Source: a virus
Lineage: Duplodnaviria; Heunggongvirae; Uroviricota; Caudoviricetes
DNA length: 7,569 nucleotides
IMG/VR virus record: IMGVR_UViG_2657244940_000004
Strand: one strand, 5' to 3'
Under the pieces are notes generated by a model that had not been told where the DNA came from, made no database searches, and saw only the letters and a list, made by a program, of their open reading frames with translations. Below, piece after piece: positions 1,448-7,569 of this stretch. How positions within the stretch are numbered: the stretch's first letter is position 1; every line of letters starts with the position of its first letter. The position numbers and the translations under genes were made by a program.

Positions 1448-1512
1448 AATAAGTCCTCACTATATTAAGATATTCAGTGATGAGATAAATAATCAGTTAA
1501 TTAAGAACGATA

Positions 1513-1875
1513 TTAATGACCTGCTGCGCGGAGTTTTCCGTCAGGTTCACCGGCAAGAGTCAGTAATTGTCCCTGGTCTTCCTGCAGAATAGTCAGGCGA
1601 CCACCTCGATTGACATACATCGGCGTTTCGGTGGTGTCTTCTTCGGAAATTTTCCCGCGGTTAGTCGGGCGAACATATGAGAGTTTGTGTTTGATTTTCA
1701 CACGGTTCTCATCAAACGGTTCGATGTCCAGATTGACCGAGACTTTACCTTTGTTTTTCGTGTTCATCACACCGGAAGCGACTTCACTGAGAACTGCGCC
1801 GAGTTTGGTTTCAAATACGCCGCCGTCCAGTTCTACGATAAATACCTGCACATCAGTACTGCGTACGCTAGCCAT
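1513..1875 (-). CDS. yfdP: YfdP-like small prophage protein, 120 aa; first gene of the leftward early operon
   Basis: The ORF track gives a 182-aa frame (1513..2061), but the N-terminal 62 codons are Cys/His/Arg-rich with no ribosome-binding site. The internal ATG at complement of 1873-1875 (MASVRSTDVQVFIVELDGG...) is preceded by GAGGAG 7-8 nt upstream (rc of 1879-1890) and gives a 120-aa product of normal composition. Confidence 0.7.
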   Translation of the reverse strand: MASVRSTDVQVFIVELDGGVFETKLGAVLSEVASGVMNTKNKGKVSVNLDIEPFDENRVKIKHKLSYVRPTNRGKISEEDTTETPMYVNRGGRLTILQEDQGQLLTLAGEPDGKLRAAGH

Positions 1876-2216
1876 TTTGCTGCTCCTCATCATATCGACC
1901 CTGCAAGGTCGGTTGGTTTCTCCACAAAACAGAGAAGAACACCTGCGGTGGCAGCCGCCCGGATGGATTGGGTTATGAGCCCGTCGTCCGGTGATGCTCT
2001 TCTCTGTTTTGTAAAAAGAGCGGTACCAGCCGGAAGCAAGTGTACAAACTGGTACCGCCAAAGCAGTGGCTGTTGTGGTGACCGGTGCTGATCTCCGGCT
2101 TGCGGTTATTTCAGACTCTCACGGGCGTTTAATTGCCCCGCCGAGCAGCTATTTTCCGCAATAGCTGCAATGTCTTTCGCGCATCAGCCTGCGCATTCAC
2201 CACAACTCTAAAAACA

Positions 2217-2269
2217 AATGTAGGATATCCAACATGTGAGTGTCAAGAGTTTATGTTGGTTATCCTACA
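2217..2269 (-). promoter_or_regulatory. PL-like leftward early promoter with OL-like operators
   Basis: Minus strand: -35 TTGACA (rc of 2241-2246), 18-nt spacer, -10 TACATT (rc of 2217-2222). 16-bp imperfect palindromes TGTAGGATATCCAACA (2219-2234, overlapping the -10) and TGTTGGTTATCCTACA (2254-2269, upstream of the -35). The 30-nt promoter core matches the PR core at 3021-3050 at 27 of 30 positions. Confidence 0.6.
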
Positions 2270-2286
2270 TAAAAAGATAGGCTCAT

Positions 2287-2312
2287 AAAAAAACCGGGGA
2301 TACCCCGGTTTT
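2287..2312 (-). terminator. Intrinsic terminator downstream of the repressor gene (analogous to lambda tIMM); flanked by A- and T-runs so possibly bidirectional
   Basis: GC-rich hairpin CCGGGG-ATA-CCCCGG (2294-2308) flanked by AAAAAAA (2287-2293) and TTTT (2309-2312). On the minus strand it reads CCGGGGUAUCCCCGG followed by UUUUUUU, about 20 nt past the repressor stop (2333). Confidence 0.6.
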
Positions 2313-2332
2313 GCGATAGTGAGGAAGATGTG

Positions 2333-2986
2333 TCAAAAATCCATTATTACTTGTTTGACAAGACCAACTATTCTGCAGTTCTCACCGCATTCAATAGTTT
2401 TATAGTTAGGATTTAGTGGGACGAGATACCTGTTCGGCCAGTCCTCAACAAATTTTTTGAGTGTCGCTTCTTGCCCACCATTGATATGGGCAACAACGAT
2501 TTTTCCGTTAATACACTCTGTATCAATAATATCTGGCTCTACGATAACGATAGAACCTTCTGGTATCGATGGTGAGCCGAGGGGATTGGTCATTGAATCA
2601 CCACGGACCCGTAGTGCAAATGCCATTTCTGATACAAGGGCGGTAGTATAAACCCACTCTTCAGCATCTTCTTTCCTGACACCAGGCTCCGTCATTGTCC
2701 ATGAACCCGCCTGAACCCACGAGATGAGGGGGACTTTTTTAACTGCGAATATTTCAGGTTTTAGATTTATCTTTGGTTCAGGCGAGCCTTTTCCGCTAAC
2801 AAGCCACAGAGGATCGCATTTAAGTGCGTTGGCTAGGGCTTGAAGGTTGGCTCCATTTGGTTGGTAGTCGTCCTTTTCCCATCCAGTAACCGTGACACGG
2901 TTCACACCAGTCAAATCAGCCAGTGCTTGTTGTGTCAGGTTCAGTTCTTTTCGCCTTTGGCGAATACGATCACTCATGTTCATCAT
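2333..2986 (-). CDS. cI: Prophage repressor, P22 c2 / lambda cI-like (N-terminal HTH_XRE plus C-terminal S24 LexA-type autopeptidase)
   Basis: N-terminal HTH (DRIRQRRKELNLTQQALADLTGVNRVTVTGWE). Ala-Gly cleavage motif VQAG in PLISWVQAGSW (lambda cI HVQAGMF, P22 c2 ISWVSAGQW). Catalytic Ser in RVRGDSM and Lys in GQEATLKKF. Aligns along its length with recalled P22 c2. Start chosen at the ATG of MMNMSDRIR (rc of 2984-2986), which has AGGA 8 nt upstream; the track's earlier ATG at 3010 would overlap the predicted PRM -10 and has no SD. Confidence 0.9.
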   Translation of the reverse strand: MMNMSDRIRQRRKELNLTQQALADLTGVNRVTVTGWEKDDYQPNGANLQALANALKCDPLWLVSGKGSPEPKINLKPEIFAVKKVPLISWVQAGSWTMTEPGVRKEDAEEWVYTTALVSEMAFALRVRGDSMTNPLGSPSIPEGSIVIVEPDIIDTECINGKIVVAHINGGQEATLKKFVEDWPNRYLVPLNPNYKTIECGENCRIVGLVKQVIMDF

Positions 2987-3050
2987 GTAGGCAATCCTAC
3001 CACATGCCAATGTAGGATTCTTGACATTGGCATGTTGGATATCCTACATT
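2986..3050. promoter_or_regulatory. OR-like tripartite operator with divergent PR (rightward, cro) and PRM (leftward, repressor)
   Basis: Three sites about 22-25 bp apart centre to centre: TGTAGGCAATCCTACC (2986-3001, overlapping the repressor SD and start), TGTAGGATTCTTGACA (3011-3026, half-site-like, contains the PR -35) and TGTTGGATATCCTACA (3033-3048, exact reverse complement of the OL site at 2219-2234, overlapping the PR -10). PR: -35 TTGACA 3021-3026, 18-nt spacer, -10 TACATT 3045-3050. Putative PRM on the minus strand: -10 TACATT (rc of 3009-3014) with a poor -35, as expected for an activator-dependent maintenance promoter. Confidence 0.65.
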
Positions 3051-3081
3051 TCTGCTTAACGTAATTTAACGGGAGACAGAA

Positions 3082-3279
3082 ATGCGGAAATCCGACGTGA
3101 TTAATTATTTCGGCGGAGTTTGTAAAACCGCCGAAGCCCTAGGTATTAAGCATCCGTCTGTTTCAGAGTGGCCTGAGATTATTCCTGAAGGCCGAGCGTA
3201 CCAGTTAGAAAAAATTACTAACGGGAAACTGAAAGTTGACGTGTCTTTATATCAAAAGACTAACAGTGCTGCGGCATAA
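3082..3279 (+). CDS. cro: Cro-like repressor, P22 Cro family (65 aa)
   Basis: MRKSDVINYFGGVCKTAEALGIKHPSVSEWPEIIPEGRAYQLEKITNGKLKV aligns with recalled P22 Cro (MYKKDVIDHFGTQRAVAKALGISDAAVSQWKEVIPEKDAYRLEIVTAGALKY). GGGAG sits 6 nt upstream of the ATG. The gene is divergent from the repressor and immediately downstream of PR. Confidence 0.85.
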   Translation: MRKSDVINYFGGVCKTAEALGIKHPSVSEWPEIIPEGRAYQLEKITNGKLKVDVSLYQKTNSAAA

Positions 3280-3306
3280 AAACACCACAGAAATGAGGAA
3301 TTAACC

Positions 3307-3885
3307 GTGGGTAAAGAACCTGAATGGAAAGTTGATAAACAACCAGCATGGCTGGTGGCAGCAATACGAAGAACGATTGCTGATTTACCTCATGGCTATG
3401 AGGAAGCAGCAGAAATTCTTGGTTTGTATAAATCTGATGATATCACCCCAGCAAAAGATCAATTGCATAACAGACTGCGTAGCGGTGGGGATCAAATTTT
3501 TCCACTTGAGTGGGCCATGGTTTTACAGGATGCCAGTGGTACCAGGCATGTAACAGATGCAATAGCCCGTCGTAGTAATGGGGTGTTTGTGCCGCTGGTG
3601 GTCATTGATGACATTGACAATGGTGACATTAATCAGCGGCTGATGGAGTCAATAGAATGGATTGGCAAGCATTCCCAGTACTTACGCAAGGCAACTGCTG
3701 ATGGAGTTATTGACCAAGCTGAACGCGAGCAGATCGAAGAGAACAGCTACCAAGTAATGGCGAAGTGGCAGGAGCATTTGACACTGTTATTTCGTGTTTT
3801 TTGTGCGCCGGAAAAGAGTAACGCCCGCGAGTGTGCAGCTCCGGGCGCCGTGGCGTGTCGTGACTGTGGAGAAACTAACGCATGA
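3307..3885 (+). CDS. Hypothetical early-right protein (192 aa); by position it could be a cII-type lysogeny regulator, unverified
   Basis: GTG start with GAGGA 8 nt upstream. Protein-like composition with acidic patches and a Cys-containing C-terminal tail (CAAPGAVACRDCGETNA). The stop overlaps the next ATG (ATGA at 3882-3885). I do not recognise a family from memory. Confidence 0.65.
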   Translation: MGKEPEWKVDKQPAWLVAAIRRTIADLPHGYEEAAEILGLYKSDDITPAKDQLHNRLRSGGDQIFPLEWAMVLQDASGTRHVTDAIARRSNGVFVPLVVIDDIDNGDINQRLMESIEWIGKHSQYLRKATADGVIDQAEREQIEENSYQVMAKWQEHLTLLFRVFCAPEKSNARECAAPGAVACRDCGETNA

Positions 3886-4484
3886 ACAGTTTAACGGCAA
3901 ATAACCGTTTGTCGCAACAGCTGGTGGTCAGTGTCGCTGCACACCTGTTGTTACGGCATGAATGCAGATTACCAAATCACCTGGCTGTAAGTAACCACAG
4001 AGAACTTTACCTGACTGTGGGGGGCGAGTTGTGCAGGAACTTAACCGCTGGTTTCGTGACGGAAGAGGACTTTATGTTCATGTTATTCGTTGGGAGCCAG
4101 AAACACAGCGCGTTATCTATCTTCGCAAAGACTACCAGCATGAGTGCTTTAGTCCTTTGTGGAAATTCAGGCGTGATTTTGTTGAGTGTGAAGGACCACC
4201 AGCATATTGATTCTGCAATTCCGGGACGTTACACTGCTCAGGCACCTTATAAAGCGGGTGCCGGGGGTCGCAGCCCGGAATTGTCAACGGCGATATATGA
4301 CGCGCCAGCGTCTTTTTTATCGTCCGCGCTCACGCACGCCAGAATTATGGTGGGCTGGGCAGGGGAGCCGAAAGGCTCGCCGGTCTCCGTTGACGCCGGT
4401 ACTGCGAACCCTGTTCAGTCTGCCACCAGTGAGTTTCGCAGCTCCGGTGGTGGAAGTTTTCCACAGTCAACGGAGGCTGCCATC

Positions 4485-5030
4485 ATGGCTACGATCCCAA
4501 CCCTCACTCAACCTGAAATTGCCATCGTTGATGGTCAGGCTGTTACTTCATCCCTGGCTGTTGCCAACTTCTTCTCCAAACGTCATGACGATGTACTGAA
4601 AAAGATCCGCACGCTTGAATGCTCTGCATCATTCACTTCCCGCAATTTTTCGGTGAGTGATTACACCGATTGCACAGGCCGCAAACTACCTTGCTATCAA
4701 ATAACCCGCGACGGCTTTGCGTTTCTTGCTATGGGTTTCACGGGTAAACGTGCTGCCCAGTTCAAAGAGGCATACATCAATGCCTTTAACCAGATGGAGA
4801 AACAGCTTTCAAATCCCTCTGTACTGAGCGACGTTGCACATAACGCCAGCGTTCTCTATTCCTACATTTCATCAATTCATCAGGTCTGGCTGCAGCAGCT
4901 TTATCCCATGTTGGCAAAAGCCGAATCCCCGCTGGCTGTAAGTCTGTATGACCGCATCAACGACGCGGCGCTACTGGCCAGTCTCATAAATTTGTCGCTG
5001 AACCCTTCAGAGGTAAGGGGGCGCAAATGA
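4485..5030 (+). CDS. rha: Rha-family phage regulatory protein (pRha domain), 181 aa from an internal start; the same frame is open upstream to 3882
   Basis: MATIPTLTQPEIAIVDGQAVTSSLAVANFFSKRHDDVLKKIRTLECSASF...YQITRDGFAFLAMGFTGKRAAQFKEAYINAFNQMEKQL matches the Rha signature (VTSS..VA..F.KRH..VL..I, TRDGF..L.MGFTGK.A..FKEAYI..FN.ME) recalled for this family. GGAGG sits 8 nt upstream of the ATG at 4485. The track ORF (3882..5030, 382 aa) would add 201 N-terminal codons of atypical composition. Confidence 0.85.
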   Translation: MATIPTLTQPEIAIVDGQAVTSSLAVANFFSKRHDDVLKKIRTLECSASFTSRNFSVSDYTDCTGRKLPCYQITRDGFAFLAMGFTGKRAAQFKEAYINAFNQMEKQLSNPSVLSDVAHNASVLYSYISSIHQVWLQQLYPMLAKAESPLAVSLYDRINDAALLASLINLSLNPSEVRGRK

Positions 5031-5251
5031 TCCGGAATATTTTCAAACGGTTTACCAATCATACTTTCCGTTGTCCTCGTCCGGGTCAGTGGTACACCAC
5101 GCCTGCAGGGCATGTTCTACGTGTTAGCCTGGTTGACCGTGAATGTCAGAAGGTGGTTTGTGAACCGCTGGGCCGTAATTACCGCGTCAGTATGCCGCTT
5201 ATAGCCTTTTGCTCCGGAAAAATGTTTAAGCGTCTGGGAGGTGTGGCGTGA
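5027..5251 (+). CDS. Small hypothetical protein (74 aa), start overlapping the rha stop
   Basis: The ATG at 5027-5029 overlaps the rha stop TGA at 5028-5030. A G-rich SD-like run (AAGGGGG) lies about 6 nt upstream. The product contains several Cys (FRCPRPG, CQKVVCEP, FCSG). No family recognised. Confidence 0.45.
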   Translation: MIRNIFKRFTNHTFRCPRPGQWYTTPAGHVLRVSLVDRECQKVVCEPLGRNYRVSMPLIAFCSGKMFKRLGGVA

Positions 5252-5472
5252 ACTGTTTTCAGGTTCGGTCATGAAAAAGTAACATATTCTATGCTGGAAC
5301 AGACCAATTTTGCATTCGCCGTCCAGGAGTTTGAGGGGAAAGTAGTCAGTGTTTACGCTCAGTCAGGGAAAGTGTGCAATGATAAACAACACGAAAGGAA
5401 TCGTAGTACATGGGCACCGCGATTCAATATTCAAGGAAAACACAATACAGCAATGTACTTGTACTGTTTCTA

Positions 5473-5754
5473 TTATTCTGGCGATTTCAATAAAGGCACT
5501 TGCTCGCGCTCTGTCATTTTCTGAAACTCTTCATGCTGCATTTCGATTTTCCTTCTAAGATCATAACTCGCATACCTGTTCTTTTTATGTATATCTATAT
5601 CTATTTTTGTGACGAGTTCAAACCACAATGTTCGCACTCCCCAGGCAGCGTTATGAAACATTTCCGCAACGGCTATAGAGTCTGTATTAACTGCTTCGGT
5701 CATGTAGTCGCTAATACGTTCAGCGGTAATTTTCGTTATTTCATCGTAATTCAT
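5473..5754 (-). CDS. Hypothetical protein (93 aa) in a low-GC segment; orphan cargo gene
   Basis: GGAGA sits 5 nt upstream of the ATG (rc of 5755-5770: GTAGGAGATAAA-ATG). Product has balanced composition ([47 protein letters not shown]...). The surrounding 5500-5860 is visibly AT-rich compared with the window. A 105-bp AT-rich gap separates it from the upstream toxin gene. Confidence 0.6.
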
Positions 5755-5859
5755 TTTATCTCCTACAAGATTATTTAATGGAATGAAAAATATCTGGCCT
5801 GATAATAATATTCCAGAATTAATATCTGCAGGCTATGTTAAGTTGTCCCCACACACAAT

Positions 5860-6135
5860 CTACCTGTTTTCTCGTGTGTGCCACAGGCGCAATACATAAA
5901 TAGTCTGGCCATTAAGTTCGTAACGGATTTCGTACTCGCCAGCAAAAATCCGTCTGACCTCCCTGGGTTCAAACTGAAACAACTGTTCTCCCATACGTGG
6001 ATGAGTTAACAGAATGACCGGTGCCTGTGTCAGGGATTGCACCGTTCTGGCGGCCGCAGGTTTACTGGCCAGCACCAGAAAATCATATAACCGCGCCAAA
6101 TCAGAAAGCGCCTTACTGGTCCACTTCAGTTCCAT
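5860..6135 (-). CDS. Type II toxin, ParE/RelE superfamily (91 aa)
   Basis: MELKWTSKALSDLARLYDFL...GEYEIRYELNGQTIYVLRLWHTRE follows the ParE/RelE fold pattern (N-terminal helices, C-terminal Y.I.Y......I.RV.H.R). Its ATG overlaps the stop of the upstream RHH gene (TGATG on the minus strand at 6133-6137). Confidence 0.85.
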   Translation of the reverse strand: MELKWTSKALSDLARLYDFLVLASKPAAARTVQSLTQAPVILLTHPRMGEQLFQFEPREVRRIFAGEYEIRYELNGQTIYVLRLWHTRENR

Positions 6136-6419
6136 CAGCGTGGCACCGGTAACGGATTGTCAGTACTGAGGCTGTCCGCCCAGGCCTGTACAGCCTGATG
6201 GTCGATAACCTGTCCGGATGTCACATCGTCCAGGGCTTCCAGCGTCAGGCGATTACGCTCCTCCTCCTGGGCAAGCCATGCAGAAAGCGCCTGTTTGATA
6301 ACCCAGCCCCGGGAGCGTTCCAGCCTGGCGGCCATCTGGTCGACTTTATCAGCCATAGGTAATGGCACATGCGCGGTAATGACTTTTGTTGCTTGTGCGG
6401 TATTGTTTTTCATTTGCAT
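6135..6419 (-). CDS. Type II antitoxin, ribbon-helix-helix (CopG/ParD-like), 94 aa
   Basis: Ribbon-helix-helix signature in VITAHVPLPMADKVDQMAARLERSRGWVIKQALSAWL, followed by an acidic C-terminal region typical of toxin-neutralising tails. Sits upstream of and overlapping the toxin. An alternative start at the third codon (ATG rc of 6411-6413) is possible. Confidence 0.8.
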   Translation of the reverse strand: MQMKNNTAQATKVITAHVPLPMADKVDQMAARLERSRGWVIKQALSAWLAQEEERNRLTLEALDDVTSGQVIDHQAVQAWADSLSTDNPLPVPR

Positions 6420-6432
6420 ATCCGATTAGTCG

Positions 6433-6474
6433 TTAATCATATTTAATCATAGTGATTACTTTCAGACGGAACAA
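6433..6474 (-). promoter_or_regulatory. Putative promoter and autoregulatory operator of the toxin-antitoxin operon
   Basis: Minus strand: -35 TTGTTC (rc of 6469-6474), 17-nt spacer, -10 TATGAT (rc of 6446-6451). A second TATGAT lies 10 bp downstream (rc of 6436-6441), forming a direct repeat TGATTAAATATGATTAA over the -10 region, the sort of site an RHH antitoxin would bind. Confidence 0.35.
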
Positions 6475-7321
6475 GGCAAATAATGCGCGTCAGCGCATGT
6501 AAGGCGGCATACGGTGGTTACATGTAGCACAGGTGTGAAACCGCCGAAGCCCGGCGTAAGCCGGTACATATTGATAGATTTCACCTTACCCATCCCCAGC
6601 CCTGCTAAGCCATACCCGCTTTCAGCCATGACAGAGCTTCTGTGCGCGGTCGGAGTGGTCCCGACGAGGGTTTACCCGAAGTCGGGGCGTATCTCCGCGT
6701 TAGCGGGCCGTCAGGGCCGCTTACGAGCGTGTACTCGATACGTCCAGCCAGAAGACTGGCAGCGATGACAATGTAGTTACAACATTCATAATTAAAAGCG
6801 ATGTTGTTCCCGCCCTTTGGGCGGGGGCGGCCTCGCTTTTCAGTTATGAGGGGTGGGCACGGTGCTGCGTTTGTGTGGTGTTTTTATTCCTGATGTCTTT
6901 TTGCTGTGGTTTCAGAACGGTGAGGTTCGGGGCCCGCGCGTCAGCGTGGGAGGTGCATATCAGTCTGTCCACAGGACAGGCATTGAACAGGTTTTCTTTT
7001 TAAATGGAAGTAATTAAGTAGTTTAAAGGAAATACAGTACTGGAGTTTAAAAGAAACATTGCACCCTGTAACGCCTGCGGCTGGCGCTTTATAGCATTAA
7101 CGGTTGTAACCTTATGGAGAAGTCCCTTGCAGTTAAATGTGGATAAACAGAATTACCCGTCTGTGAGACGTGTTTTGCGTGAAAAACAGGGGGAGCATGA
7201 TGAGCCGGAAGGCAGATGATGAGGCTGTTTTTTGTGTGCTGTGCTGCTTTTTTGTGCGTCGCCGGGCTTCAGACGTGCGGAAGCCTCCGGCGCAGGCCGG
7301 ATTATTCAGATGAGGTCAAAC

Positions 7322-7569
7322 TCAGGGTGAGGCAGTGGCCAGCCGTGTGTAGTTGTTGTTCCGCGACATTATCATTCGTTCCTTCACGCGACGGTCGATT
7401 TCGCGCTTCACGGCCTCCAGGCTTCCGCGGAAACGCCCTTCCGCGATTTCACGTGTCAGCTGCCGTTTCACCAGGGTGACAATGTCCTGACGGGTCCTGC
7501 CTGCATCGCGGCGCGCACGGGCACGTTTCATGCCGTGGGACTTAAGCTCTGCCTGATAACTGCGGAAAC
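7322..7569 (-). CDS. Basic protein of unknown function, partial; frame open to the window edge, N-terminus may lie outside
   Basis: Minus-strand frame is open from the window edge to the stop at 7322 (...FRSYQAELKSHGMKRARARRDAGRTRQDIVTLVKRQLTREIAEGRFRGSLEAVKREIDRRVKERMIMSRNNNYTRLATASP). The internal Met at 7531 has no SD. Arg/Lys-rich and helical-looking, suggesting nucleic-acid binding. A 5-bp hairpin (7287-7300) follows the stop. No family recognised. Confidence 0.45.
   Translation of the reverse strand, partial: FRSYQAELKSHGMKRARARRDAGRTRQDIVTLVKRQLTREIAEGRFRGSLEAVKREIDRRVKERMIMSRNNNYTRLATASP

What the first reader, a model, noticed from the sequence alone, without database searches (positions are those of the whole stretch)
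2217..3050. Near-identical PL and PR promoter-operator cores flanking the repressor gene
The 30-nt core TTGACA-N18-TACATT with the embedded operator TGTTGGATATCCTACA occurs once on each strand: PR at 3021-3050 (plus) and PL at 2217-2246 (minus), 27 of 30 positions identical. The 16-bp operator at 3033-3048 is the exact reverse complement of that at 2219-2234. Together with sites at 2254-2269, 2986-3001 and 3011-3026 this defines an operator family TGT(A/T)GG(A/T)T ATCC(T/A)ACA, and with it a specific immunity type. It differs from the P22 and lambda operator sequences I recall, so the phage is probably heteroimmune to both.
Basis: seen in the sequence. Interest (0 to 1): 0.5.

Follow-up and report, generated by a model that had tools for sequence, protein, structure and literature searches.

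The report
Operators of a P22-type prophage switch
These repeats are almost certainly the repressor-binding sites and the two early promoters of an ordinary lambda/P22-style prophage on/off switch, one whose DNA-recognition code has not been studied experimentally.

Summary
The PR core (3021-3050, +) and the PL core (2217-2246, -) match at 27 of 30 positions. The palindromes at 2219-2234, 2254-2269 and 3033-3048 fit the proposed consensus exactly. 2986-3001 fits with 3 mismatches. 3011-3026 matches only in its left half.

The functional unit is an 18-mer, ATGTWGGAT.ATCCWACAT. The layout (OL1, 17 bp holding the PL -35, OL2, terminator, cI, OR3, OR2, OR1, cro) matches the phage 21/P22 immC region site for site.

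The repressor has an HTH domain plus an S24 autopeptidase domain and is 44% identical to P22 C2. Cro belongs to the P22_Cro family.

Relatives sharing the recognition helix NRVTVTG (49-90% identical overall, eight genera) keep these operators. Relatives with other helices carry correspondingly different half-sites. In a diverged clade, operator diversity is about 20-fold below synonymous-site diversity.

Homology to phages of other immunity types stops at 2206 and resumes at 3284, so 2207-3283 is a swappable immunity cassette. It is present in 140 of 5426 complete E. coli genomes.

Verdict: a new, uncharacterised specificity within a well-known kind of switch. Binding and heteroimmunity are inferred, not tested.

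One unexplained extra: the 3-4 bp gaps beside the operators are far more polymorphic than synonymous sites.

The parts
2207..3283 (.). Immunity cassette (PL/OL, cI, OR/PR, cro) that moves as one mosaic unit
   Evidence: Homology to phages with other repressors (mEp460, Stx2a_1447, P1-like and others) ends at window 2206 and resumes at 3284 (H7). IMG/VR copies with a different left flank join at 2192-2205.
2218..2235 (.). OL1, ATGTAGGATATCCAACAT. It lies in the PL spacer and overlaps the -10.
   Evidence: Conserved in all relatives with the same recognition helix.
2217..2246 (-). PL promoter core: -35 TTGACA (2246-2241), 18-bp spacer, -10 TACATT (2222-2217). Start predicted near 2210.
   Evidence: 10 of 12. 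The 18-bp spacing is kept in all relatives. The transcription start is inferred, not mapped.
2253..2270 (.). OL2, ATGTTGGTTATCCTACAT, 35 bp centre-to-centre from OL1
   Evidence: The 17-bp gap holding the -35 box is invariant in length in all relatives and in phage 21.
2284..2312 (-). Intrinsic terminator of the cI transcript: a 10-bp stem, 7 of them G/C-containing pairs (CCGGGG/CCCCGG core), then a U run
   Evidence: -17 kcal/mol, z = -3.8. A different GC hairpin followed by a T run sits at the same place in relatives.
2333..2986 (-). cI-type repressor, 217 aa. HTH_3 domain with helix-3 VNRVTVTG (aa 28-35). Peptidase_S24 domain with Ala93-Gly94, Ser131 and Lys177.
   Evidence: RefSeq annotates the same ORF as a LexA family protein.
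2985..3002 (.). OR3, ATGTAGGCAATCCTACCA. It abuts and overlaps the cI start codon.
   Evidence: 3 mismatches. Nearly invariant in 8 clades.
2982..3010 (-). Candidate PRM: -35 TTGGCA (3010-3005), 17 bp, -10 CATGAT (2987-2982)
   Evidence: 9 of 12. The -35 falls in the hypervariable gap and is not conserved. Inferred only.
3010..3027 (.). OR2, ATGTAGGATTCTTGACAT. The left half is operator-like and the right half is the PR -35.
   Evidence: 5 mismatches to the 16-bp consensus. Its position is conserved, and its left half changes with specificity in L092.
3021..3050 (+). PR promoter core: -35 TTGACA (3021-3026), 18-bp spacer, -10 TACATT (3045-3050). Start predicted near 3057.
   Evidence: The cro Shine-Dalgarno GGGAGA (3071-3076) and ATG (3082) follow.
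3032..3049 (.). OR1, ATGTTGGATATCCTACAT
   Evidence: Identical in 5 of the 8 other NRVTVTG clades tabulated (6 of 9 rows with the window).
3082..3279 (+). cro, 65 aa, P22_Cro family
   Evidence: E = 7.6e-22. Its recognition helix co-varies with operator type.
2237..2239 (.). Hypervariable gap between OL1 and the PL -35
3006..3009 (.). Hypervariable gap between OR3 and OR2
3029..3031 (.). Hypervariable gap between the PR -35/OR2 and OR1

Best explanation
Window 2207-3283 is the immunity cassette of a lambdoid prophage of the P22 C2 / phage 21 (immC) type.

The proposed mechanism is as follows, and all binding steps are inferred. Dimers of the 217-aa repressor recognise 18-bp dyads, ATGTWGGAT.ATCCWACAT. 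G3, T4 and G7 of each half-site are invariant and the central 4 bp are AT-rich.

OR1 and OL1 lie between the -35 and -10 boxes of PR and PL, and their promoter-proximal half supplies the -10 hexamer TACATT. An occupied site would therefore exclude RNA polymerase from both early promoters.

OR2 is a half-consensus site fused to the PR -35. It would be filled cooperatively from OR1 and is placed to activate a weak leftward cI promoter (PRM). OR3 overlaps the cI start and would shut cI off at high repressor or Cro levels. OL2 lies 35 bp from OL1, just after the cI terminator.

Cro (P22_Cro family) would read the same sites to run the lytic programme. RecA-stimulated self-cleavage at Ala93-Gly94, using Ser131 and Lys177, would induce the prophage.

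The near-identity of the PL and PR cores results from the double constraint of operator plus promoter, not from a recent duplication. Specificity differs from P22/21 at half-site positions 3 and 6, so the cassette should define its own immunity group.
For: Sequence statistics: (0 of 200 shuffles). Best sigma-70 matches in the region.

Proteins: HTH_3 plus Peptidase_S24 for the repressor, and P22_Cro for Cro. The C-terminal domain aligns to lambda cI with the Ala-Gly site and the Ser and Lys residues conserved. The N-terminal domain aligns to the P22 C2 structures.

Shared architecture with phage 21/P22: OR3 abuts the repressor ATG. OR spacings are 22 and 25 bp here against 23 and 25 bp in phage 21 (positions of P22 OR2 read by eye). 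OL1 plus a 17-bp gap plus OL2 is the same in both.

Phylogenetic footprint: relatives from Enterobacter, Pantoea, Erwinia, Morganella-like, Providencia and Salmonella sources, and phage mEp390, are 49-90% identical in cI. All carry helix NRVTVTG and keep all five sites in place while the gaps diverge.

Purifying selection: in a diverged clade of 13 sequences, operator pi is 0.018 against 0.35 at fourfold sites (5/90 versus 80/106 segregating, p = 2e-25).

Covariation of cI helix and half-site: SRVSVTK goes with TGTAAC, SASAVTQ with xGTAAG, SKTSVSQ with GTTAAG, and P22/21 SNVAISQ with ATTTAAG.

Covariation of Cro: its helix changes in parallel.

Structural rationale: in the P22 co-crystal, Gln37 contacts the T opposite A6 and Val33 sits among the TTAA methyls (PMC5175364). 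Here Gln becomes Gly, A6 becomes G, and the Val is kept.

Indirect read-out: positions 8-11 are non-contacted and AT-rich centres bind P22 repressor best (PMC4267663). Here OR1 and OL1 have ATAT, while OR3 has CAAT and OR2 has ATTC. The Asn of the PNG motif is conserved.

Terminator after cI. Cassette borders.
Against: There are no binding, footprint or transcript-start data for this cassette. No paper in the searchable library holds the operator sequence.

OR2 matches the consensus in one half only. Only two OL sites are detectable, whereas P22 is described as having six sites in all. The 35-bp OL1-OL2 spacing is not a whole number of helical turns.

The 18-bp promoter spacer and the TACATT -10 are sub-optimal. 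PRM could not be placed with confidence, because its candidate -35 lies in a hypervariable patch.

No lambda/P22-type CII box (TTGC-N6-TTGC) was found, so the establishment promoter is unknown.
Confidence: 0.87

Rival explanations
1. OR works with two sites only. On this reading 3010-3027 is just the -35 region plus a chance half-site, and the repressor binds non-cooperatively, as reported for phage 933W.
For: 3011-3026 has 5 mismatches to the 16-bp consensus. 933W repressor shows that lambdoid switches need not use OR1-OR2 cooperativity (PMC3317979).
Against: The left half (ATGTAGG or AGGTAAG) is kept at the same distance from OR1 in every clade. It changes to AGGTAAC in the relative whose operators are TGTAAC. 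Phage 21/P22 OR2 is similarly degenerate in one half and has the same ATTC centre.
Confidence: 0.15
2. The palindromes are read mainly by a protein other than cI. Candidates are host LexA, the YmfL/CII-like protein, or the second LexA-like protein found in related prophages.
For: The repressor is annotated as a LexA family protein. Related prophages carry another small LexA-like gene downstream.
Against: The sites lack the CTG-N10-CAG SOS-box pattern. Operator half-sites co-vary with the helix-3 sequences of both the adjacent cI and the adjacent Cro across relatives. Cassette borders enclose only cI and cro.
Confidence: 0.03
3. The PL/PR similarity is a relic of a recent inverted duplication or gene conversion and has no regulatory meaning.
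For: 27 of 30 positions are identical, in inverted orientation, about 800 bp apart.
Against: The same pair exists in lineages whose synonymous sites are near saturation (fourfold pi 0.35), yet the operators there have pi 0.018. The three differences lie exactly in the non-operator gap. The flanks outside the 30-mer are unrelated.
Confidence: 0.02

Closest known systems
immC region of Salmonella phage P22 / imm region of coliphage 21 (C2 repressor, Cro, OL, OR)
   Same: Repressor is 44% identical over 207 aa and its N-terminal domain matches the P22 C2 structures. Cro is in the P22_Cro family. Sites are 18-bp dyads with an AT-rich non-contacted centre. OR3 abuts the repressor ATG. OR spacings are 22/25 bp here against 23/25 bp. 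OL1 plus a 17-bp gap holding the -35 plus OL2 is shared. A terminator follows the repressor gene.
   Different: The half-site is ATGTAGG instead of ATTTAAG (positions 3 and 6). Helix-3 is NRVTVTG instead of SNVAISQ. PR is shifted by about half a site: here OR1 fills the spacer and the -10, and the -35 is the right half of OR2. In P22/21 the -35 is the left half of OR2 and OR1 covers the -10 and the start. There is no N-like gene directly after PL; a long leader and then yfdP follow.
Phage lambda immunity region (cI, cro, OL, OR, PRM)
   Same: The repressor C-terminal domain is clearly homologous (E = 7e-25 to full-length lambda cI), with the Ala-Gly site and the Ser and Lys residues conserved. 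It has divergent cI and cro genes, a tripartite OR, and OL on the far side of cI.
   Different: Lambda uses 17-bp operators of unrelated sequence and a different N-terminal domain subfamily. Here OL and OR are about 0.8 kb apart with no rexAB between them, against about 2.4 kb in lambda (own knowledge).
Enterobacteria phage mEp390 (sequenced; switch not characterised, as far as the searchable literature shows)
   Same: cI is 60.5% identical with the same helix-3. OR3 is identical. OR1, OR2, OL1 and OL2 are of the same type and at the same positions. It probably belongs to the same or a cross-reacting immunity specificity.
   Different: More half-sites read TGTAAG. The -10 of PR is TACTAT. The neighbouring genes differ.
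Phage 933W switch
   Same: A lambdoid cI/OR/OL switch found in E. coli Stx prophages. The present cassette also occurs in Stx2c-converting phages.
   Different: 933W repressor is reported to bind non-cooperatively and has unrelated operators (PMC3317979). VT2-Sakai-type Stx-phage cI repressors are only ~34-36% identical; 933W's own cI was not compared.

Membership tests
Lambdoid cI/Cro immunity region | Repressor with an N-terminal HTH domain and a C-terminal S24 self-cleaving domain (Ala-Gly site, Ser/Lys dyad) | tested here: met
   Pfam HTH_3 (E = 1e-15) and Peptidase_S24 (E = 4e-25). Alignment to lambda cI keeps VQAG, GDSM and the KK motif.
Lambdoid cI/Cro immunity region | Divergently transcribed cro gene directly across OR | tested here: met
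   ORF 3082-3279 (+), P22_Cro, E = 7.6e-22.
Lambdoid cI/Cro immunity region | Multiple dyad-symmetric operators overlapping divergent promoters between cI and cro (OR), plus a second set with PL beyond cI (OL) | tested here: met
   OR has three sites, one of them half-consensus. OL has two detectable sites.
Lambdoid cI/Cro immunity region | Repressor and Cro physically bind these operators and repress PL and PR | not testable with these tools
   Only indirect support: operator conservation against synonymous sites, and covariation with the cI and Cro helices.
Lambdoid cI/Cro immunity region | The region behaves as an exchangeable immunity module | tested here: met
   Homology to phages with other repressors breaks at 2206 and 3284. 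The same cassette sits in different flanks.
P22 C2 / phage 21 immC subtype | 18-bp operators with contacted positions 2-7 and 12-17 and an AT-rich non-contacted centre; OL1-OL2 35 bp apart; OR3 abutting the repressor start | tested here: met
   Format as described in PMC4267663 and PMC5175364.
P22 / phage 21 immunity specificity (homoimmune with P22 or 21) | Half-site ATTTAAG and recognition helix SNVAISQ | tested here: not met
   The half-site here is ATGTAGG, with G3 and G7 in 70 of 70 and G6 in 62 of 70 half-sites. The helix is NRVTVTG. Cross-immunity itself was not tested.
LexA SOS box | CTG-N10-CAG palindrome | tested here: not met
   None of the five sites carries CTG...CAG.

The most novel reading that the evidence does not exclude
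The few bases that neither repressor nor polymerase needs to read are evolving much faster than synonymous sites within an otherwise near-clonal cassette. These are 2237-2239, 3006-3009 and 3029-3031, and to a lesser degree the operator centres.

The most interesting reading is recurrent positive or diversifying selection. These gaps would be the only free 'tuning knobs' for PL, PR and PRM strength and for operator affinity, letting each lineage reset its induction threshold without changing immunity specificity.

The alternative is a localised mutation hot spot. The gaps lie beside permanently repressor-bound DNA, and they form the loops of the inverted repeats made by neighbouring half-sites.

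A weaker version of the same excess is seen in the classical imm21/P22 cassette, so the effect may be general to these switches.
Probability: 0.3. Interest if true: 0.55.

Novelty: new member of a known kind. Interest (0 to 1): 0.27.

Why it matters
It defines, from sequence and comparison alone, the operator code (ATGTWGGAT.ATCCWACAT) and the cassette borders of an immunity group. That group is present in about 2.6% of complete E. coli genomes, in Stx2c-converting phages, and in prophages of at least seven other enterobacterial genera.

This helps predict which prophages exclude one another and which share SOS-inducible control of toxin genes.

Together with its relatives it forms a graded natural series: TTTAAG, GTTAAG, TGTAAG, TGTAGG, TGTAAC. 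Each operator type is paired with changes in the repressor and Cro helices. The series is a ready-made test set for how P22 C2-type HTH domains change specificity.

The switch itself holds no conceptual surprise. The hypervariable gaps are the only feature a specialist might not expect.

Tried and rejected
- **Operator sequence in the literature.** A full-text search for the operator found only unrelated primer hits. Searches for Lys8385Vzw, mEp390 and hypervariable operator spacers found no description of this switch.
- **Rfam.** There is no RNA family in 2100-3400 apart from a chance-level Termite-leu hit. The motif conserved downstream of PL in relatives has no hit.
- **Lambda/P22-type CII box (TTGC-N6-TTGC).** Fewer matches than chance, so no establishment promoter could be assigned.
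- **A third OL site.** The 18 bp overlapping the PL -35 has no half-site. A TAGG-containing stretch at about 2275-2283 is not conserved in relatives. Rejected.
- **Leaderless cI mRNA and exact PRM placement.** Two registers are possible: CATGAT with a start near 2975-2977, or the TAGGAT half-site acting as the -10 with a start at 2986. Neither is supported by a conserved -35. Left open.
- **Sequencing artefact as the cause of gap variability.** Rejected. The variants are shared by many independent genomes, occur in finished genomes (H10407, Lys8385Vzw), and recur in an independent metagenome set.
- **PL/PR gene conversion as the cause of gap variability.** Rejected. The variants at the two promoters do not resemble each other.
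- **Terminator scan.** The simple scan missed the cI terminator. Folding confirmed it.
Full report
**Observation**

The window was read at 2100-3400. The 30-mer TTGACA-N4-CATGTTGGATATCCTACATT occurs exactly twice, at 3021-3050 on the plus strand and 2217-2246 on the minus strand. No shuffle gave a match. The two copies differ only at three positions in the short stretch between the -35 box and the palindrome, so 27 of 30 positions are identical.

The 16-bp consensus TGTWGGWTATCCWACA is matched exactly at 2219-2234, 2254-2269 and 3033-3048, and with three mismatches at 2986-3001. There were eight strand-matches against 0.26 expected, and 0 of 200 shuffles reached eight. Only its left half, TGTAGGAT, is operator-like, and its right half is the PR -35 box.

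The flanking A and T are also kept, so the real unit is an 18-mer. I call the sites OL1 (2218-2235), OL2 (2253-2270), OR3 (2985-3002), OR2 (3010-3027) and OR1 (3032-3049). A consensus promoter scan independently gives the same two promoters as the best matches in the region: TTGACA, 18 bp, TACATT, 10 of 12.

**Genes**

ORF 2333-2986 (-) encodes a 217-aa protein with an HTH_3 domain and a Peptidase_S24 domain. ORF 3082-3279 (+) encodes a 65-aa protein of the P22_Cro family.

Among solved structures, the C-terminal two thirds of the repressor align with lambda cI (E = 7e-25). The self-cleavage site (VQAG: Ala93-Gly94) and the catalytic Ser131 and Lys177 are conserved. The N-terminal domain aligns with the P22 C2 DNA-binding domain. 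Overall identity to P22 C2 is 44% (tblastn gives 44-46% to P22-like and imm21 phages).

A hairpin with a CCGGGG/CCCCGG core followed by a U run lies just after the repressor stop on the minus strand. The cI transcript should therefore end before OL2 and PL.

**Where it occurs**

The 1.3-kb region is 99% or more identical in 140 of 5426 complete E. coli genomes. It is also found in Escherichia phage Lys8385Vzw, three Stx2c-converting phages, vB_EcoM-720R4 and SKA5. Those records annotate only 'LexA family protein', 'Cro/CI family regulator' and 'YmfL family protein'.

Homology to phages carrying other repressors (mEp460, Stx2a phages and others) runs up to window 2206 and stops, a few bases from the predicted PL start. 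It resumes at 3284, just after the cro stop. Some IMG/VR copies have a different left flank that joins at 2192-2205. So 2207-3283 behaves as an exchangeable immunity cassette containing only OL/PL, cI, OR/PR and cro.

**Comparison with the known switch**

The phage 21/P22 region (locus L004) has the same plan. OR3 (AGTTAAGACATCTTAAAT) directly abuts the repressor start codon. Next come OR2 (ACTTAAGATTCCTTTGGT) and OR1 (ATTTAAGTGTTCTTTAAT). Beyond the repressor gene and a terminator lie OL2, a 17-bp gap holding the PL -35, and OL1.

Centre-to-centre distances in the window are 22 bp (OR1-OR2), 25 bp (OR2-OR3) and 35 bp (OL1-OL2). Phage 21 has 23, 25 and 35 bp.

The literature describes P22 operators as 18-bp dyads with consensus ATTTAAGATATCTTAAAT. 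Positions 2-7 and 12-17 are contacted and the central four bases are not. Those central bases are read indirectly and bind best when AT-rich. Val33 packs against the TTAA methyl groups, and Gln37 touches the T opposite A6 (PMC4267663; PMC5175364).

Here the consensus is ATGTAGGATATCCTACAT. The format and the ATAT centre are the same, but G replaces T3 and A6. In the repressor, Val is kept, the Gln37 equivalent is Gly, and Asn32 becomes Arg (NRVTVTG against SNVAISQ). The Pro-Asn-Gly motif that sits at the central minor groove in P22 is conserved.

The strong sites OR1 and OL1 have ATAT centres. OR3 has CAAT and OR2 has ATTC, which by analogy with P22 should weaken them. That last step is inference.

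Protein and locus searches recovered relatives from Enterobacter, Pantoea, Erwinia, Providencia, Salmonella, a Morganella-type contig and phage mEp390. Their repressors are only 49-90% identical overall, but all carry NRVTVTG.

All of them have OR3, OR2, OR1, OL1 and OL2 of the ATGTAGG type at the same positions. All have an 18-bp promoter spacer and a 17-bp OL gap, while the sequences between sites differ freely. In 70 half-sites from nine clades, G3, T4 and G7 are invariant.

In a clade of 13 sequences whose fourfold-degenerate sites are nearly saturated (pi 0.35, 80 of 106 segregating), the 90 operator positions have pi 0.018 (5 segregating, p = 2e-25). The gaps vary at about the neutral rate. 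This is strong evidence of purifying selection on exactly these 18-mers.

Relatives with other helices have other half-sites at the same positions:

| cI helix-3 | Source | Half-site |
|---|---|---|
| NRVTVTG | this window and eight other clades | ATGTAGG |
| SRVTVTG | Yersinia (L091) | mixes TGTAGG with TGTCAG |
| SRVSVTK | Cronobacter (L092) | TGTAAC-N4-GTTACA |
| SASAVTQ | Yersinia (L094) | xGTAAG |
| SKTSVSQ | L095 | GTTAAG |
| SNVAISQ | P22/21 (L004) | ATTTAAG |

The left half of OR2 changes with the specificity while its right half remains the -35 box, which argues that OR2 is a genuine site. The Cro recognition helix changes in parallel: KHPSVSE/G-W in the ATGTAGG clades, SHPAVCRW in L092, and SDAAVSQW in phage 21.

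**Why PL and PR look alike**

In every clade, the operator half next to the -35 box is ATGTTGGAT-like. The half over the -10 is ATCCTACAT, and its last bases give TACAT(T). An A at the W position there would spoil the first T of the -10. The orientation and near-identity of the two cores therefore follow from having to be both an operator and a promoter. The three differences fall in the only unconstrained bases.

**Mechanism, with status**

Shown by computation: the sites, their conservation, the domain content, the cassette borders and the covariation.

Inferred from the P22 and lambda paradigms:
- Repressor dimers at OR1/OR2 and at OL1 block PR and PL.
- OR2-bound repressor activates a weak PRM.
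- OR3 represses cI synthesis.
- Cro uses the same sites.
- RecA-dependent cleavage induces the prophage.

Not resolved:
- **The PRM position.** The scan's candidate (TTGGCA, 17 bp, CATGAT; 3010-2982) would put OR2 at about -41.5 from a start at 2977, which is lambda-like geometry. However, its -35 lies in a hypervariable patch and is TGGGCA in most copies.
- **The role of OL2.** Its 35-bp spacing from OL1 is not a whole number of helical turns.
- **The establishment promoter.** No CII-type box was found.

Heteroimmunity to lambda and to P22/21 is likely from the operator and helix differences but is untested. mEp390 may be homoimmune.

**An unexpected extra**

The data set was 65 near-identical E. 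coli copies of window 2100-3400 (62 IMG/VR loci, H10407, Lys8385Vzw and the window itself). Polymorphism concentrates in three tiny patches: 2237-2239, 3006-3009 and 3029-3031.

| Site class | Sites | Segregating | Mean pi |
|---|---|---|---|
| Inter-site gaps | 22 | 11 (5 tri-allelic) | 0.110 |
| Fourfold-degenerate | 151 | 16 | 0.0076 |
| Operator positions | 90 | 13 | 0.0067 |

For sites with pi above 0.1, gaps against fourfold sites give p = 8e-8. The 65 copies show 27 haplotypes (three gap strings plus fourfold site 2726).

Finished genomes differ at these same positions. An independent set of 13 metagenome contigs repeats the result: 10 of 22 gap sites against 2 of 151 fourfold sites segregating, p = 7e-9.

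A control on 51 near-identical copies of the imm21/P22 cassette shows the same trend more weakly. Gaps have 9 of 23 sites segregating against 8 of 98 at fourfold sites (p = 7e-4), and the non-contacted operator centres have 7 of 20.

Relaxed constraint alone cannot push diversity above the synonymous level. Either these positions are recurrently selected, as the only free bases through which promoter strength and operator affinity can be tuned, or they are mutation hot spots. I could not separate the two. The counts are not phylogeny-corrected, although tri-allelic sites and four-gamete violations point to repeated events.

**Comparison with the known, and novelty**

This is a member of the lambdoid cI/Cro switch family, P22 C2 / phage 21 architectural subtype. 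Every sequence-level defining feature tested was met. It fails the test for P22/21 specificity, so it is a distinct immunity type.

No paper in the searchable library contains the operator sequence or describes this switch. That library omits most subscription journals, so prior description cannot be excluded.

I rate it a new member of a known kind. Interest is low to moderate: the switch itself is textbook. The specificity series and the hypervariable gaps are the parts worth a follow-up.

Noticed in passing
window 2237-2239, 3006-3009, 3029-3031 (also 3051 and the operator centres 2260, 2992, 3041): The gaps between operators and -35 boxes are about 14-45 times more polymorphic than fourfold-degenerate sites among near-identical copies. 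This holds in two independent data sets. A weaker version appears in the imm21/P22 cassette. The cause is unknown: selection for tuning, or a mutation hot spot.
   Followed up: yes
window 4242-4430, within ORF 3882-5030: Rfam finds isrK (4242-4318, 58.7 bits) and C4 antisense RNA (4343-4430, 78.8 bits) on the plus strand. The Pfam 'Phage_ASH' match of the 382-aa ORF (aa 117-212, nt 4230-4517) coincides with these two RNA genes, and a Rha domain follows at aa 222-307. This looks like a P1 c4/ant- or Gifsy-1 isrK/anrP-type RNA-controlled antirepressor module downstream of cro-ymfL. Much of the annotated ORF ('peptidase' in Lys8385Vzw) may be RNA leader rather than protein.
   Followed up: partly
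window 5244-5257 (junction); 5257-7569: Prophage homology ends at 5243. From 5257 the window is 99% identical to the replicon region of about 85-kb IncK2/Z conjugative plasmids. That region carries an RHH/ParE toxin-antitoxin pair at 5860-6419 and an IncFII-family repA toward the window end. No complete E. coli genome or PLSDB plasmid spans the junction. The window is therefore a rare phage-plasmid recombinant or a chimeric contig.
   Followed up: partly
window 2145-2168: There is a hairpin in the PL leader (GCAGCTATT...AATAGCTGC). The window has G2145 and A2151 where 60 of 62 other copies have A and C. Both window-specific bases complete a perfect 9-bp stem.
   Followed up: no
loci L008/L072, L091, L092, L094, L070, just downstream of PL: Several relatives with different immunity specificities share a conserved motif of about 70 nt right after PL (GAATCATCC...GGCGGCTACTTCGTGGGCGTCCTGCCTGTTCGCTGTTGATG). 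It has no Rfam match and is absent from the window, whose PL leader is a different module. It could be a leader or antitermination RNA of the leftward operon.
   Followed up: partly
window 2726: This fourfold-degenerate site (cI Leu87, third position) is tri-allelic (G/T/A) at intermediate frequency in both data sets. It is the only synonymous site that behaves like the gap positions.
   Followed up: no
window 1450-2206 and 3307-3885: The yfdP-containing left module is 97% identical in phages of other immunity types. Its first ~107 nt next to the cassette, window 2100-2206, are also 97% identical in P1-like plasmid prophages. The gene after cro (YmfL family, 192 aa) has only a weak CII (Phage_CP76) match, and no lambda/P22-type CII box is present.
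   Followed up: partly
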